Part shown: one piece after another, positions 7,123-59,920 of the stretch
Layout: every line of letters begins with the position of its first letter
How positions within the stretch are numbered: position 1 is the stretch's first letter
NCBI GenBank assembly: GCA_951406725.2
Contig: OX597832.1
Location: forward strand, 18,724,001-18,788,000
Direction: 5' to 3'
DNA from: Octopus vulgaris
Lineage: Eukaryota
Length of the DNA: 64,000 nucleotides
Notes under the pieces: model-generated
What the model was told of the DNA's origin: nothing
Seen by the model: the letters and a program-made list of their open reading frames with translations, nothing else
The model's database searches: none
Made by a program: the position numbers and the translations under genes

Positions 7123-7902
7123 GGCAGCGAGCTGGCAGAATCGTTAGCACGCCGGGCGAAATTCGTAGCCGTATTTCGTCTGCCGTTACGTTCTGAGTTC
7201 AAATTCCTCCGAAGTCGACTTTGCCTTTCATCCTATCGGGGTCGATAAATTAAGTACCAGTTACGCACTGGGGTCGATATAATCGACTTAATCCGTTTGT
7301 CTGTCCTTGTTTGTCCCCTCTGTGTTTAGCCCCTTGTGGGTAGTAAAGAAATAGATAAATTAAGTACCAGTTACGCACTGGTGTCGATATAATCGACTTA
7401 ATCCGTTTGTCTGTCCTTGTTTGTCCCCTCTGTGTTTAGCCCCTTGTGGGTAGTAAAGAAATAGATAAATTAAGTACCAGTTACGCACTGGTGTCGATAT
7501 AATCGACTTAATCCGTTTGTCTGTCCTTGTTTGTCTCCTCTATGTTTAGCCCCTTGTGGGTAGTAAAGAAATAGATAAATTAAGTACCAGTTACGCACTG
7601 GTGTCGATATAATCGACTTAATCCGTTTGTCTGTCCTTGTTTGTCCCCTCTATGTTTAGCCCCTTGTGGGTAGTAAAGAAATAGATAAATTAAGTACCAG
7701 TTACGCACTGGGGTCGATATAATCGACTTAATCCGTTTGTCTGTCCTTGTTTGTCTCCTCTATGTTTAGCCCCTTGTGGGTAGTAAAGAAATAGATAAAT
7801 TAAGTACCAGTTACGCACTGGGGTCGATATAATCGACTTAATCCGTTTGTCTGTCCTTGTTTGTCTCCTCTATGTTTAGCCCCTTGTAGGCAATAAAGAA
7901 AC
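7123..7902 (+). mobile_element. SINE family A with six tandem 110-bp copies of its 3' half; 13-bp target-site duplication
   Basis: tRNA-like head (A-box-like gctggcagaatcgtt, B-box gagttcaaattcc). Units start at 7244, 7354, 7464, 7574, 7684 and 7794. tgtatttgttctt occurs at 7107-7119 and 7909-7921. Confidence 0.92.
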
Positions 7903-8770
7903 AGGTACTGTATTTGTTCTTTATTCAAACAAGGATGGTGTTTATAAGAATAATGTAAATACGAAATGGGAGAATCGTTTTAAAAGGTTTATTGAACGAC
8001 GAAATTTTGAAAGAAGGGTACGTAAATGTCGCAGCAACAACATTTCTTCACTTACAGGCCTTGAAATCTTATTGTATCGCTTCCTAAGTGCAAGATCACC
8101 CAAACTTGTCTCCTAAATGAAAAGATGTATCATGTTTTAAAACTATGCCGCAACTAAATACGATAAACTAATGCAGTGAATTGCGAAAGTATTTGTTGTG
8201 TAAGAGGCACAGAGTAGGCGTGATTTTACCGATACGAAGTGTTCTATTTAAACACAATGAAATAAGGAATTTGAACAAGAAAGTATTTATGTTGGAAGAG
8301 ATACAGTGAAGGTAAAACATTATCGATATAATCGTTTATCAAAAAGTGTAGGAAACGAGGCAAATGGACTGGAAAGTCGTCTCGTATACACGAGGATATG
8401 GCTGTGCCAGTTTGGAGCTGATATTACGACAGTCACTGTGGACGTAGTTTTTGTATAGTAAAGGTAGTCTGGATATATTCAATAATGGAGTACATATTTT
8501 TTCTATGAGATAAGATGACGCAAACTGTACAATCCACGTTTAATAAGCAATGCTACACTGTTTGAATAGCATATTTCAATGCCATGTGAGTAAACAAATA
8601 TTTTCATGTATGAAGAAGTTGTTTGTATATTGCTACATATAGTTGCTTTAGATTGCGATATATAAGTTAGAGATATATCCTCGACGTTAATAATGTGTAT
8701 TTTATATTCCATACAGCATTAATGTGAATGAATTGTTTAGTGAAATATATTTAATGCTATATATGCCCTG

Positions 8771-10951: not shown

Positions 10952-11365
10952 GGCGGAGAGCTGGCAGAATCGTTAGCCCGCCAGGCGAAATGATTAGCGG
11001 TATTTATTCTGCTGCTACGTTCTGAGTTCAAATTCCGCCGAGGTCAACTTTGGCTTTCATCATTTTGGGGTCGATTAAATAAGTACCATTTACGCACTTG
11101 GATCAATATAATCGACTTAATCTGTTTGTCTGTCCTTGTTTGTCCCCTCTGTGTTTAGCCCCTTGTGGCTAGTAAAGAAATAGGTATTTCGTCTGCCGTT
11201 ACGTTCTGAGTTCAAATTCCGTCGAGGTCGATTTTGCTTTCATTCTTTTGGGATCTATTAAATAAGAACCAGTTACGCATTGGGGGCGATATAATCAACT
11301 TAATCCGTTTGTCTGTCCTCGTTTTTCCTCTCTGTGTTTAGCCCCTTTTGGGGAGTAAAGAATCA
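10952..11365 (+). mobile_element. SINE family A, body duplicated (period about 184 bp); 12-bp target-site duplication
   Basis: Head ggcggagagctggcagaatcg; re-entry aaagaaata|ggtatttcgtc at 11183; gtaatgttatat at 10934-45 and 11366-77. Confidence 0.88.
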
Positions 11366-11719
11366 GTAATGTTATATATCTATTTATCGAAACTATTATC
11401 TGCACCTGTTTTGTCCCTATAAACAAAAGCGCATGAGCCAGTGGACTCATTTCCATACATAAAGGCGCACCACATCTATCCACAGTTAACTACATATATC
11501 CTTCTCTCTCCCCCTCTCTCCCCCTTTACATGTCTCTTTCTTTCGCAATTCTCCATAGCACAACCAAGTGGGATCGAACCCATAACGACTTCAATATAAA
11601 TGTCATACGGTAAAAATATATATATATTCTAAATGCAAAACCTTATGATGCGACTGAAGACGTTTTGACGAAGTCACGGGATTATCCTTATTCAAGACAT
11701 TGTATACAATACTGATTTC

Positions 11720-12790: not shown

Positions 12791-12894
12791 GTATATACAA
12801 ATGCTGTGCTGATAAGTTAACTCATAAGTTGAGATCTTGTATATAACATAAGCGTAGACAGAATAACTATCAAGATTAAACAAGAAAATAGATC

Positions 12895-13367
12895 AAAGGC
12901 TAAGTCGATCTAGGTGGAATTTGAACTCAGAACGTAACGGCAGATGAAATGCCTATTTCTTTACTACCCACAAAGGGCTAAACACAGAGAGGGCAAACAA
13001 AGACAAACAAGCGGATTAAGTCGACTACATCGACACCAGTGCGTAACTGGTACTTATTTAATCAACCTCGAAAGGATGAAAGGCAAAGTCGACCTCGGCG
13101 GAATTTAAACTCAGAACGTAACGGCAGTTGAAATGCCTATTTCTTTATTACCCACAAGGGTCTAAACACAGAGAGGACAAACAAGGACAATCAAGCGGAT
13201 TAAGTCGATTATATCGACCCCAGTGCGTAACTGGTACTTATTTAATCGACCCCGAAAGGATGAAAGGCAAAGTCGACCTCGGCGGAATTTGAACTCAGAA
13301 CGTAACGGCAGACGAAATTCCGATAAGCATTGTGTCCGGCGTGCAAACGTTTCTGCTAGTTCACCAC
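12895..13367 (-). mobile_element. SINE family A, body re-iterated about 2.3 times
   Basis: Reverse-complement units with junctions gaaatgcctatttcttta at about 12946 and 13131. Confidence 0.87.
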
Positions 13368-39508: not shown

Positions 39509-39680
39509 TTCGTGTACGTATGTATATACGCACACATATATAAATTGTGTACCGTAATTTTGTGATCTAAGTTCATGTTAGATCTCAGTTCGAAAGCAAA
39601 TAGAAGGCAGAAAATATTTCCAAGATCATTTTGAAATCTACCACTGTACTCATCGCTTTTCTTTTCCCAAAATATATATA

Positions 39681-40093
39681 TTTCTTTACTACCCACAAGG
39701 GGCTAAACATAGAGGGGACGAACAAGGACAGATAAATGGATTAAGTCGATTATATCGACCCCAGTACGAAACTGGTACTTTATTTATCGACCCCGAAAGA
39801 ATGAAAGGCAAAGTCGACCTCGAAGGAATTTGAACTCAGAACTTAACGGCAGACGAAATACCTATTTCTTTACTACCCACAAGGGGCTAAACATAGAGGG
39901 GACAAACAAGGACAGACAAAGGGATTAAGTCGATTAAATCGACCCCAGTGCGAAGCTGGTACTTTATTTATCGACTCCGAAAGGATGAAAGGCAAAGTCG
40001 ACCTCGTCGGAATTTGAACTCAGAACGTAACGGCAGACGAACTACCACTAAGCATGAAGCCCGGCGCGCTAACGTTTCTGCCAGCTCGCCGCC
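39681..40093 (-). mobile_element. SINE family A, body duplicated (period 184 bp)
   Basis: tttctttactacccac at 39681 and 39865; head ctgccagctcgccgcc at about 40078-93. Confidence 0.9.
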
Positions 40094-45720: not shown

Positions 45721-46156
45721 AGGACCAGGCGTACACAAACACTCGCACGCTCACGCACACACACACTCACACACATATGTATATTTATGTATATGTATAT
45801 AACTACACCCTTATGTTCATGTATATACGTGTATGTGCGTGTGTATATGTATATGTAGATAGACAGACAGATAAATAGTTAGGTAGGAAGATAGATTAAT
45901 ATATATCTATCTAACTATCTATATATAATAGAAATATTAAAATTACTAAGTCTCTCTAAAAGAGAACAACGGCAGCGTTCCCGGAAAATAATAGTTATCA
46001 CCATACTAATATGGCATTCTTATAAAAATAAGAATAAAGCTGTCCGCTTATTAGCTCCATGAGGCCATCGCCTTAAGTTAGCTATTTGCTACACAAACTG
46101 TATCCATATAACCTTCGAACAAGGGAGGTCAGTCGCTCCACACTACTTGACCGGCA

Positions 46157-46197
46157 GCTACAGACGCGTTTCGGGGTATTGCCCCTTTTCAATGCAA
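46157..46197 (-). ncRNA. Second copy of the same hammerhead ribozyme, 5' arm of stem I truncated at the inversion junction
   Basis: Minus strand reads ttgca-TTGAAAA-GGGGcaataCCCC-GAAA-CGCG-TC-tgtagc. About 5 bp of stem I remain; predicted cleavage after C at 46163. Confidence 0.75.
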
Positions 46198-46508
46198 GTA
46201 GTGTGGAGCGACTGACCTCCCTTGTTCGAAGGTTATATGGATACAGTTTGTGTATCAAATAGCTAACTTAAGGCGATGGCCTCATGGAGCTAATAAGCGG
46301 ACAGCTTTATTCTTATTTTTATAAGAATGCCATATTAGTATGGCGATAACTATTATTTTCCGGGAACGCTGCCGTTGTTCTCTTTTAGAGAGACTTAGTA
46401 ATTTTAATATTTCTATTATTGAAAACAAGTGGATGTATTCCACCGAAGCTAGGTAAATAAAACCTTCGAACAGAGATTGTCAGAAGCGACACCTACTGGT
46501 CTGGCCAC

Positions 46509-46550
46509 GCTGCATTGAAAAGGGGCAATACCCCGAAACGCGTCTGTAGC
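46509..46550 (+). ncRNA. Minimal type I hammerhead ribozyme, U3-A8 core variant
   Basis: Stem I GCTGCA(46509-14)/TGTAGC(46545-50); core TTGAAAA (46515-21; CUGANGA with C3>U and G8>A); stem II GGGG-caata-CCCC (46522-34); GAAA (46535-38); palindromic stem III ACGCGT; GUC triplet with predicted cleavage after C46544. Confidence 0.85.
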
Positions 46551-46726
46551 TGCCGGTCAAGTAGTGTGGAGCGACTGACCTCCCTTGTTCGAAGGTTATA
46601 TGGATACAGTTTGTGTATCAAATAGCTAACTTAAGGCGATGGCCTCATGGAGCTAATAAGCGGACAGCTTTATTCTTATTTTTATAAGAATGCCATATTA
46701 GTATGGCGATAACTATTATCTATATA

Positions 46727-46815
<89 letters not shown>

Positions 46816-47963: not shown

Positions 47964-48432
47964 ACGGCGAGCTGGCAGAAACGTTAGCACGTCGGGCGAT
48001 ATGCTTAGCGGTATTTCGTCTGCCGCTACGTTCTGAGTTCAAATTCCGCCGAGGTCGACTTTACCTTTCATCCTTTCGGGGTCGATGAAATAAGTACCAG
48101 TTAAGCACAGGGTCGATATAATCGACTTAATCCCTTTGTCTGTCCTTGCTTGTCCCCTCTGTATTAAGCCCCTTGTGGGTAGTAAAGAAATAGGTATTTC
48201 GTCTGCCGTTACGTTCCGAGTTTAAATTCCATCGAGGTCGACTTTGCCTTTCATACTTTCGGAGTCGATAAATTAAGTACCAGTTACGCACTGGGATCGA
48301 TATAATCGAATTAATCCCTTTGTCTGTCCTTGTTTGCTCCTTGTGAGCAATAAAGACATAAGAAACGTTAGTGAGTCGGACGGAACGCCTAGCGGTATTT
48401 CGTCTTTCTTTACGTTCTGCGTTCAAATTCCG
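47964..48432 (+). mobile_element. SINE family A, re-iterated
   Basis: Head acggcgagctggcagaaacg; re-entries at about 48193 (ggtatttcgtc) and about 48361 (agaaacgttag). Confidence 0.88.
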
Positions 48433-59164: not shown

Positions 59165-59920
59165 GAGTTGGCAGAAAAGTTAGCACGACGGGCGAACAGC
59201 TCAGCGGTATTTCGTCTGCCGTTACGTTCTGAGTTCAAATTACGCCGAGGTCGACTTTGCCTTTCATCCTTTTGAGGTCGATAAATTAAGTACCAGTTAC
59301 GCACTGGAGTCGATATAATCGACTTATTCCGTTTGTCTCTCCTTGTTTGTCCTCTGTGTTTAGCCCCTTGTGGGCAGTAAAGAAATAGGTATTTTGTCTG
59401 CCGTCACGTTCTGAGTTCAAATTCCACCGAGGTCGACTTTGCCTTTCATCTTTTCGGGGTCTATAAATTAAGTACCAGTTACGTACTTGGATCGTTGTAA
59501 TCGACTTAATACTTTTGTCTGTCCTTGTTTGTCCCCTCTATGTTTAGCCCCTTGTTGGCAATAAAGAAATAAGAAACGTTAGTACGCCGGTCGAAATGCT
59601 TAGCGGTATTTCTTCTGCCGTTACGTTCTGAGTTCAAATTCCGCTGAGGTCGACTTTGCCTTTCATCCTTTCGGGTTCGATAAATTAAGTACCAGTTACG
59701 CAATGCGATCGATGTAATCGACTTAATGTCCTTGTTTGTCCTCTCTATGTTGAGCCCCTTCTGGGCAGTAAAGAAATAAGAATCGGTAAGCAGGTCGAGC
59801 AAAATGTATAACGGCATTTCATCGGTCATTTCAAGCTGCATTCAAATTATATTGAGGTCAACCTTGACCTTCATCATTTTCTGGGTCAATAAAGTAAGTA
59901 CCAGTTGAGCACTGAGGTCA
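59165..59920 (+). mobile_element. SINE family A multimer (about 4 re-iterated units, the last degenerate)
   Basis: Re-entries at about 59388 (ggtattttgtc), 59572 (agaaacgttag) and 59779 (agaatcggtaagc). Confidence 0.87.

What the first reader, a model, noticed from the sequence alone, without database searches (positions are those of the whole stretch)
46195..46719. 363-nt highly structured repeat unit: candidate retrozyme or circular RNA family
Seen: the unit period is exactly 363 nt with no long ORF. 46458-46505 is an imperfect reverse complement of 46552-46600 (including aaccttcgaaca/tgttcgaaggtt), so the ribozyme caps a roughly 55-bp rod. The rest contains serial hairpins (gatacagtttgtgtatc, aggcgatggcct, attcttat-tttt-ataagaat, gccata-ttag-tatggc, gggaac..gttctc). 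Known: metazoan non-LTR retrozymes are tandem units of a few hundred nt with one hammerhead each, give circular RNAs and are thought to be mobilised by Penelope-like elements. Caveat: this locus has only one plus-strand ribozyme, so it cannot release a monomer by double cleavage itself; it would be an insertion derived from such an RNA.
Basis: partly seen in the sequence, partly recalled or inferred. Interest (0 to 1): 0.85.

Follow-up and report, generated by a model that had tools for sequence, protein, structure and literature searches.

The report
Ribozyme repeat spread by Penelope retrotransposons
A 363-base non-coding repeat with a predicted self-cutting RNA motif lies at hundreds of sites in this animal genome with the insertion scars of Penelope-type jumping genes, so it is likely a protein-less parasite of those elements (a known class, the retrozymes) that would be copied from a small RNA circle.

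Summary
The 363-nt unit has no ORF, folds far better than shuffles (z about -6.4) and carries a type I hammerhead with a U3-A8 core. The genome holds 786 exact ribozyme copies, in dispersed arrays of up to 5.5 units; 0 of 43 position-sampled loci were the terminal repeat of an ORF. Insertions carry Penelope scars: (TA)n targets, two fixed 3' ends 63 nt apart, and one short plus one long end in 27 of 27 intact two-armed insertions. An intact Neptune-like Penelope element here shows the same habits but shares no sequence with the unit. Units within one insertion share a haplotype, which fits rolling copying of one monomer circle but does not exclude uncut linear multimers. Cleavage, expression and circles are not shown. 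The scan noted similar insertion anatomy for an unrelated unit in another genome (unchecked note).

The parts
45916..45927 (.). left copy of the 12-bp target-site duplication (last 3 nt shared with the arm end)
   Evidence: row L001; sequence
45925..46196 (-). inverted arm, 272 nt (unit positions 317 to 225 of the next unit), outer end at the 'long' 3' site, so it carries the 63-nt tail at 45925-45987
   Evidence: 99.3% identity; two differences from the plus arm, at 46000 and 46089
46157..46196 (-). second type I hammerhead, same core; helix I cut to 5 bp by the junction; predicted cut 46163/46162
46195..46196 (.). head-to-head junction of the two arms, 2-nt overlap
   Evidence: 34 of 51 two-armed loci overlap by 1-6 nt
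46195..46719 (+). plus arm, 1.45 units, outer end at the 'short' 3' site (unit position 162)
46195..46557 (+). one full 363-nt ORF-less unit
46357..46419 (+). 63-nt 'tail' between the two fixed 3' end sites (46356 and 46419), likely the two reverse-transcription start sites
   Evidence: reading from PMC11167929
46457..46601 (+). predicted rod of about 45 pairs capped by the ribozyme
   Evidence: substitutions in subfamily B avoid paired sites
46509..46550 (+). type I hammerhead: helix I 46509-46514/46545-46550 (6 bp), U3-A8 core 46515-46521, helix II 46522-46534 (4 bp, 5-nt loop), GAAA 46535-46538, palindromic 4-nt helix III loop 46539-46542, predicted cut 46544/46545
   Evidence: sequence; definitions from PMC4209133
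46717..46728 (.). right copy of the 12-bp target-site duplication (first 3 nt shared with the arm end), running into a (TA)n tract to 46778

Best explanation
This is one insertion of an ORF-less, 363-nt, hammerhead-bearing repeat family (a non-LTR retrozyme) that is likely mobilised in trans by a Penelope-like retrotransposon, most likely by rolling reverse transcription of a monomer RNA circle. Shown: the family, its structure, its arrays, its target preference and its end rule. Inferred steps: (1) read-through transcripts of arrays with two or more units fold pairs of hammerheads through the palindromic helix III and cut at the site equal to 46544/46545; (2) the 363-nt monomer is ligated to a circle, in which the lone ribozyme would be nearly inactive; (3) a Penelope RT-endonuclease, probably a dimer, binds near the tail, nicks both strands of a TA-rich target about 8-12 bp apart and primes one cDNA at each end of the tail (unit 162 and 225); (4) each cDNA runs round the circle for 0.1 to 5.5 turns and the two are joined head to head through microhomology. 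The window locus is such a two-armed product and is probably a dead end, with one ribozyme per strand.
For: Family: 786 exact 33-nt ribozyme motifs and 2207 exact 31-nt hairpin motifs, controls 0; 40 of 1347 candidates scored, full-unit matches 98-100% identical. No ORF link: 0 of 43 position-sampled loci continue into a Penelope ORF; 4 of 43 have separate Penelope copies nearby. Ends: 69 of 74 arms end at unit 154-167 or 218-227; 27 of 27 intact two-armed insertions have one of each, none two of a kind (P about 7e-9 if independent); 15 of 15 in the top-hit set, 8 of 8 in subfamily B. 61 of 69 ends abut a TA run against 636 of 8600 random places; 8-12-bp duplications at 9 of 51 two-armed loci. 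Inverted 5' copies, a tail at one end and microsatellite bias are described Penelope traits (PMC8557442); the tail lies between two RT start sites and the protein is predicted to be a dimer (PMC11167929). A young intact RT+GIY-YIG element with the CX2-5CxxC linker is present, also targets (TA)n, has two 3' ends 38 nt apart and a U3-A8 hammerhead; one locus joins a retrozyme arm (long end) head to head with a truncated copy of it (short end). Monomer template: at seven common markers 36 of 936 within-locus pairs differ against 434 expected; 11 variants private to one locus are in all copies of that locus, up to 4, 6 of them across both arms; only 2 of 1378 locus pairs share even two within-array differences. 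36 of 74 arms run through at least one cut site, 14 through two or more. Ribozyme kept over three subfamilies: helix III palindrome changes but stays palindromic, helix II has a compensatory change.
Against: Self-cleavage and circularisation were not tested. Rfam finds no hammerhead. The unit shares no detectable sequence with the intact Penelope element (score 19, reached by 79 of 100 shuffles; no blastn hit), so the partner is not identified; at least four other Penelope families exist here. The one chimeric locus has about 155 nt of another repeat between the partners and may be adjacent separate insertions. Haplotype uniformity also fits linear transcripts of young uniform arrays. In vitro, a Penelope protein used uncleaved RNA and did not need its ribozyme (PMC11167929), and 8 of 9 frog retrozyme dimers did not cleave (10.64898/2026.07.22.740005). 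10 of 112 predicted pairs are broken in subfamily B against 9 kept by change.
Confidence: 0.68

Rival explanations
1. Non-autonomous Penelope derivative copied from uncut linear multimer transcripts; the hammerhead is weak or incidental and no circle is needed.
For: Same insertion scars. Helix III is a single pair with a palindromic loop and is not formed in the monomer fold. Uncleaved RNA was the main substrate of a Penelope protein in vitro (PMC11167929). 0 of 74 sampled 5' ends lie at the cut site, which fits uncut linear RNA as well as a circle. Multicopy head-to-tail non-autonomous Penelope elements are known (MRC1, PMC8557442).
Against: Variants private to one locus yet present in every copy there (11 cases) need a one-unit-to-many step somewhere; no inherited within-array differences were found (2 of 1378 pairs share two, none three), though 200 private within-array differences exist to be inherited. 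The ribozyme is kept with compensatory change over subfamilies 70-83% alike.
Confidence: 0.24
2. The unit is the pseudo-LTR of an autonomous Penelope element not sampled here; the loci are its 5'-truncated ends.
For: U3-A8 hammerheads are the rule in the terminal repeats of this genome's Penelope elements; only 150 of 6136 GIY-YIG candidates were scored.
Against: 36 of 74 arms pass the ribozyme and continue into another unit, never into other shared sequence; 0 of 43 loci join an ORF; arrays reach 5.5 units; tblastn of 75 further locus records (some overlapping, 1.5-kb flanks) gave 3 hits: the chimera, a tail-to-tail neighbour and a weak hit about 1 kb from the arm.
Confidence: 0.04
3. Satellite or DNA-level amplification (unequal crossing over, local duplication, Helitron-like copying) or assembly artefact.
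For: Tandem units within a locus are more alike (1.2%) than between loci (2.8%), as local homogenisation would give; one locus is duplicated whole (L142).
Against: Dispersed short arrays on many contigs, fixed 3' ends with ragged 5' ends, target duplications, inverted arms as alike as tandem units (1.22% against 1.17%); the sequence is held by public runs of 11 studies and laid in contigs of runs under three organism codes.
Confidence: 0.02

Closest known systems
Metazoan non-LTR retrozymes (Cervera and de la Pena 2020, PMC7229834): mussel 350-390 bp and axolotl/newt 330-350 bp repeats
   Same: Tandem ORF-less unit of 150-450 bp, one type I hammerhead per unit, GC under 50%, highly self-paired predicted circle, target duplications longer than 4 bp, co-existence with autonomous Penelope elements; helix III of one pair with a palindromic tetraloop as in HHR_Amex1.
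   Different: U3-A8 core instead of C3-G8; short dispersed arrays (at most 5.5 units seen against up to 62 in coral); inverted arms, two fixed ends and (TA)n targets, which the main text of that paper does not mention ('inverted' 0, 'microsatellite' 0 occurrences; supplement not readable). Cleavage and circles were shown there, not here.
Vertebrate retrozymes as non-autonomous Penelope sequences (Li, Clavereau, Pollet 2026, 10.64898/2026.07.22.740005)
   Same: Same conclusion: retrozymes parasitise Penelope elements.
   Different: That work rests on co-occurrence and on similarity to pseudo-LTRs (24 of 57 frog families) in 35 genomes with no mollusc; 'tail' does not occur in its text. Here there is no similarity to the sampled pseudo-LTR and the link comes from insertion scars. 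It favours local tandem amplification; the haplotype data here favour amplification at insertion.
Autonomous EN+ Penelope-like elements, Neptune type (PMC8557442; mechanism in PMC11167929)
   Same: Partial tandems, inverted 5'-truncated copy, tail at one end, microsatellite targets, hammerhead in the repeat.
   Different: No RT or endonuclease; tail of 63 nt against 30-40 nt; canonical-size helices I (6 bp) and II (4 bp) rather than the minimal form of PMC4209133.
Non-autonomous Chlamys elements such as MRC1 (PMC8557442)
   Same: Non-coding, multicopy head-to-tail insertions made by Penelope machinery.
   Different: Those resemble their autonomous partner at the 3' end, and the paper reports no canonical hammerhead in that clade; this unit has a hammerhead and no such resemblance to the partner sampled.

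Membership tests
Metazoan non-LTR retrozyme | Short (150-450 bp) head-to-tail genomic repeat without coding capacity, LTR, PBS or PPT | tested here: met
   363 nt, no ORF over 38 aa from ATG; arrays to 5.5 units, no flanking ORF. PBS and PPT were not searched for separately.
Metazoan non-LTR retrozyme | One type I hammerhead per unit with intact core | tested here: met
   Core, three helices and cut triplet read directly; U3-A8 is a natural covariation already proven active in vitro (PMC3088659, passage); Rfam does not score it.
Metazoan non-LTR retrozyme | Loci with two or more ribozymes in tandem that could release a monomer | tested here: met
   14 of 74 sampled arms span two or more intact ribozyme sites; the window locus itself does not.
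Metazoan non-LTR retrozyme | Stable, highly self-paired monomer | tested here: met
   Circular fold -122.0 kcal/mol, 63% paired, z -6.4; changes in subfamily B at 24 of 224 paired against 30 of 139 unpaired positions, p 0.006.
Metazoan non-LTR retrozyme | Target-site duplication longer than 4 bp when present | tested here: met
   8-12 bp at 9 of 51 two-armed loci, the window among them; most others lie in TA runs and are uninformative; lengths allow a few bases shared with the arm ends.
Metazoan non-LTR retrozyme | Self-cleavage of the transcript | not testable with these tools
   Needs an in vitro assay.
Metazoan non-LTR retrozyme | Accumulation as monomeric linear and circular RNA | not testable with these tools
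   Only assembled contigs of runs of unrecorded type were served.
Autonomous Penelope-like element (unit as its pseudo-LTR) | Repeat flanks an RT + GIY-YIG ORF | tested here: not met
   0 of 43 loci with 4-kb flanks; no similarity to the terminal region of the intact element.
Penelope-mobilised insertion | Inverted 5'-truncated copy, tail at one end only, microsatellite target | tested here: met
   31 of 43 loci two-armed; 27 of 27 intact pairs have the tail at one end; 61 of 69 ends at TA runs.
Penelope-mobilised insertion | 3' end shared in sequence with an autonomous partner | tested here: inconclusive
   None with the main family or with 40 loci fetched from the GIY-YIG search apart from two neighbouring retrozyme copies; most Penelope copies were not sampled.
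Minimal Penelope hammerhead (min-HHR, PMC4209133) | Helix II of 7-8 bp, helix I of 4-5 bp, extra base before helix II | tested here: not met
   Helix II 4 bp, helix I 6 bp with an internal loop beyond it, no extra base: canonical sizes.
Plant LTR retrozyme | Type III hammerheads in LTRs, 4-bp duplication | tested here: not met
   Type I topology, no LTR, 8-12-bp duplications.

The most novel reading that the evidence does not exclude
The insertion scars record the mechanism itself: one Penelope RT-endonuclease dimer loads on one ribozyme-made 363-nt RNA circle, starts its two cDNAs at the two ends of a 63-nt tail, one from each nicked target strand, and rolls round the circle. That would be direct genomic evidence that an animal retrozyme is written into DNA by Penelope machinery from a circle, by a partner that recognises RNA shape rather than shared sequence, and it would explain the one-sided Penelope tail as an obligate short-plus-long pairing.
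Probability: 0.4. Interest if true: 0.7.

Novelty: new member of a known kind. Interest (0 to 1): 0.5.

Why it matters
Which enzyme mobilises animal retrozymes, and whether their tandem arrays are written from a circle, are stated as open in PMC7229834 (discussion) and in 10.64898/2026.07.22.740005. This family is young (98-100% alike), has about 950 loci by extrapolation, and sits beside an intact candidate partner, so both questions become directly testable with the in vitro Penelope assay of PMC11167929. The strict one-short-one-long rule (50 of 50 intact pairs over three samples) also constrains how Penelope proteins prime on both strands. The class itself is known, so a specialist would find the family expected and the insertion evidence useful rather than startling.

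Tried and rejected
Rfam: no match at gathering score in the window and no ribozyme family among 16 weak matches. Tandem Repeats Finder did not report the unit and the direct-repeat scan was swamped by microsatellites. No Penelope ORF is recognisable by eye among 41 frames of 120 aa or more in the window, and the 9.9 kb on either side hold no further unit. Expression: no RNA holder listed; 20 of 24 runs hold half the words or more but none is on record as RNA. Laid contigs cross the cut site and give no start or end signal; the depth of the unit relative to the Penelope element was no higher in the two guessed-RNA runs than in the two large runs; contigs cannot rank levels, so this is no evidence either way. 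A 2-kb contig that left the unit after position 160 looked like a partner's 5' end; it maps to a single locus with a decayed copy and was dropped. A 67-nt DNA search returned nothing, not even the window itself, a limit of that search. Local alignment of the unit to the Penelope 3' region and tail is at chance level; the shared 7-nt word at the long ends of both was not counted as evidence. A cofold of two ribozyme regions did not give the dimer fold; the helix III duplex alone is -8.9 kcal/mol. A pile of 5' ends at the cut site (expected from cleaved linear monomers) is absent: 0 of 74; three arms start at 348-352 in the top-hit set, which is biased to that zone.

Full report
Observation. 46195-46356 is repeated exactly 363 nt downstream, and the unit has no frame over 38 aa from an ATG or 65 aa stop to stop. 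The rod and four of five named hairpins are in the predicted fold, which is far more stable than shuffles as a fragment (z -6.75), as a linear unit (z -6.37) and as a circle (z -6.4). The ribozyme is a type I hammerhead at 46509-46550: 6-bp helix I, 4-bp helix II, core with U3 and A8 in place of C3 and G8, and helix III reduced to one pair around a palindromic tetraloop. Rfam misses it. U3-A8 is a natural covariation already shown active in vitro (PMC3088659, passages) and occurs in Schistosoma Penelope elements (PMC4209133, parts 1-2 of 4 read). A weak palindromic helix III is the mark of ribozymes that cut as dimers (same paper; PMC7229834, parts 2-3 of 6, discussion and passages).

The locus is larger than reported. 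An inverted arm at 45925-46196 is 99% identical to the unit and has its own hammerhead on the minus strand. The two arms meet head to head with a 2-nt overlap, and a 12-bp direct repeat brackets the whole at 45916-45927 and 46717-46728.

The family. The genome is 2.8 Gb in 227 contigs; that it is a cephalopod is my recall from its size and repeats, not a tool result. The unit gave 1347 candidates, 40 scored, with full-unit matches 98-100% identical. Exact motif counts are 786 for the ribozyme and 2207 for a hairpin near the 3' end, reversed controls 0. The first 100 of the 2207 matches fall by my grouping into 43 clusters on contig C1, which extrapolates to about 950 loci. I fetched all 43 with 4-kb flanks as a sample chosen by position, plus two hand-picked long loci. 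Two older subfamilies, 83% and about 70% alike, have the same period and anatomy. Their hammerheads keep the U3-A8 core; the helix III palindrome differs in each yet stays palindromic (10 of 17 segments printed for the oldest have the same core and palindrome; two of the 17 are chance matches and two loci overlap). Against subfamily B, 93 of 112 predicted pairs are unchanged, 5 change on both sides, 4 on one side and 10 break (5 of them at gaps); changes fall on 24 of 224 paired and 30 of 139 unpaired positions, p 0.006.

Not a pseudo-LTR. In 0 of 43 loci does an arm continue into a Penelope ORF; 4 of 43 have a separate Penelope copy within 4 kb, and one has a terminal-repeat fragment beyond a TA run. 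36 of 74 arms run through a ribozyme into another unit, 14 through two or more, up to 5.5 units. Rows left out before counting: arms under 91% identity (an old arm in L140, a second old insertion in L150), the second copy of a duplicated insertion in L142 and a 35-nt middle piece in L145.

Insertion scars. 69 of 74 arms end at one of two sites, unit 162 or 225, 63 nt apart. Of the 43 loci, 27 have a short and a long end, none has two of a kind, 4 two-armed loci have one end elsewhere, 11 are single-armed (8 long, 3 short) and 1 is cut by a gap; P is about 7e-9 under independence. The 25 distinct top-hit loci (5 duplicates of 30 dropped) add 15 of 15 and 24 subfamily B loci (1 duplicate dropped) add 8 of 8. 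61 of 69 ends abut a TA run of 10 nt or more against 636 of 8600 random places, and 9 of 51 two-armed loci show a non-trivial 8-12-bp duplication. These are Penelope traits: inverted 5'-truncated copy, 30-40-bp tail often at one end only, microsatellite bias tied to a CX2-5CxxC linker (PMC8557442, passages). In vitro, the tail is the stretch between two RT start sites, both target strands are cut and extended, AT-rich DNA is preferred and the protein is predicted to be a dimer (PMC11167929, parts 1-2 of 4).

Candidate partner. A GIY-YIG search gave 6136 candidates, 150 scored. The dominant family has an open 781-aa frame with RT (E 1e-6, just under Pfam's cut-off) and GIY-YIG domains, the cysteine linker, (TA)n targets, two 3' ends 38 nt apart and a U3-A8 hammerhead; its one two-armed copy in my sample has one short and one long end (L056). 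It shares no detectable sequence with the unit, so it is a candidate only, and other Penelope families are present. One of 70 loci (L014/L070) joins a retrozyme arm ending at the long site head to head, through 44 nt of inverted unit and about 155 nt of another repeat and with no TA run between, to a truncated copy of this element ending at its short site. That fits one shared event but may be adjacent insertions.

Circle or linear template. Over 70 loci, copies within a locus differ at 1.19% of sites (1.17% in one arm, 1.22% across arms) against 2.78% between loci; at seven common markers 36 of 936 within-locus pairs differ against 434 expected from random units. 11 variants seen in one locus only are present in all its copies, against 200 private variants in only some copies. 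If arrays were copied from aged parent arrays, daughters would share unit-to-unit differences; 2 of 1378 locus pairs share two and none shares three. None of 74 5' ends lies at the cut site, so templates were mostly uncut or closed. This favours repeated copying of one monomer, as proposed for retrozyme circles, but uncut transcripts of young uniform arrays are not excluded; against the circle, Penelope insertion in vitro did not need cleavage and 8 of 9 frog retrozyme dimers did not cut (10.64898/2026.07.22.740005, parts 1-3 of 5 and passages). RNA data could not decide (see Tried and rejected).

What is known and new. The class, its circles and the Penelope hypothesis are published. I found no description of this family or of these scars on a retrozyme in nine library searches (listings and abstract starts only for papers not named above). 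The supplement of PMC7229834 could not be read, that of the preprint was not seen, and 1 file of PMC4209133 was not searched; they, and repeat libraries not available here, may already list this unit.

Verdict. Real; new member of the non-LTR retrozymes; mobilisation by Penelope machinery about 0.9, circular template about 0.7, both together 0.68. Interest 0.5, chiefly because the young family and the intact candidate partner make an open mechanism testable.

Noticed in passing
L054:44-5260 (G000:C6) and L051-L065: Young, abundant Neptune-like Penelope family with two ORFs: a 479-aa upstream ORF with no credible Pfam match and the 781-aa RT+GIY-YIG frame, a terminal repeat of about 0.5 kb or more with internal repeats, and a U3-A8 hammerhead. 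15 of 15 copies fetched as full length have the 781-aa frame open.
   Followed up: partly
L071:4437-4990, L079-L103; L140:1422-1684, L179-L198: Two older subfamilies of the same unit (83% and about 70% alike to the window; 2836 and 2272 first-look candidates) with period about 360 and different palindromes in helix III: successive waves of one lineage.
   Followed up: partly
window 46506: The window copy has C where 52 of 54 loci have T, in the internal loop of helix I. From recall, the majority UAC loop and the CAAUA loop II resemble the loop-loop contact of the Schistosoma hammerhead, so this copy's ribozyme may be weakened; not tested.
   Followed up: no
unit positions 26-32 (window 46220-46226): Hot spot of 5' ends: 14 of 74 arms stop here, about 10-15 nt inside the 3' strand of the rod, as if reverse transcription stalls in the 12-bp core of the rod.
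   Followed up: no
L163:4588-4720, L164:4202-4451, L070:3441-3595: Foreign fillers of 133-250 nt between the two arms, one of them a piece of a common dispersed repeat; they may be captured templates.
   Followed up: no
L164:4560-5410, L148:1240-2100, L047: Other Penelope families (55-63% protein identity to the main one) also carry U3-A8 hammerheads and end in (TA)n: the variant core appears to be the norm in this genome.
   Followed up: partly
L142:7426 (minus), L005:184 (minus): A further short hammerhead-like motif with a C3-G8 core recurs in flanking DNA; its element was not identified.
   Followed up: no
L078 (G000:C20): A decayed two-armed copy appears at the start of a 2-kb contig of a guessed-RNA run, perhaps inside a host transcript.
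   Followed up: partly
window 7133-7910, 10962-11372, 12891-13318, 39679-40046, 47973-48383, 59169-59795: A high-copy dispersed repeat with 110-nt and 183-nt tandem periods; from recall it resembles a known cephalopod SINE family; not tested.
   Followed up: no
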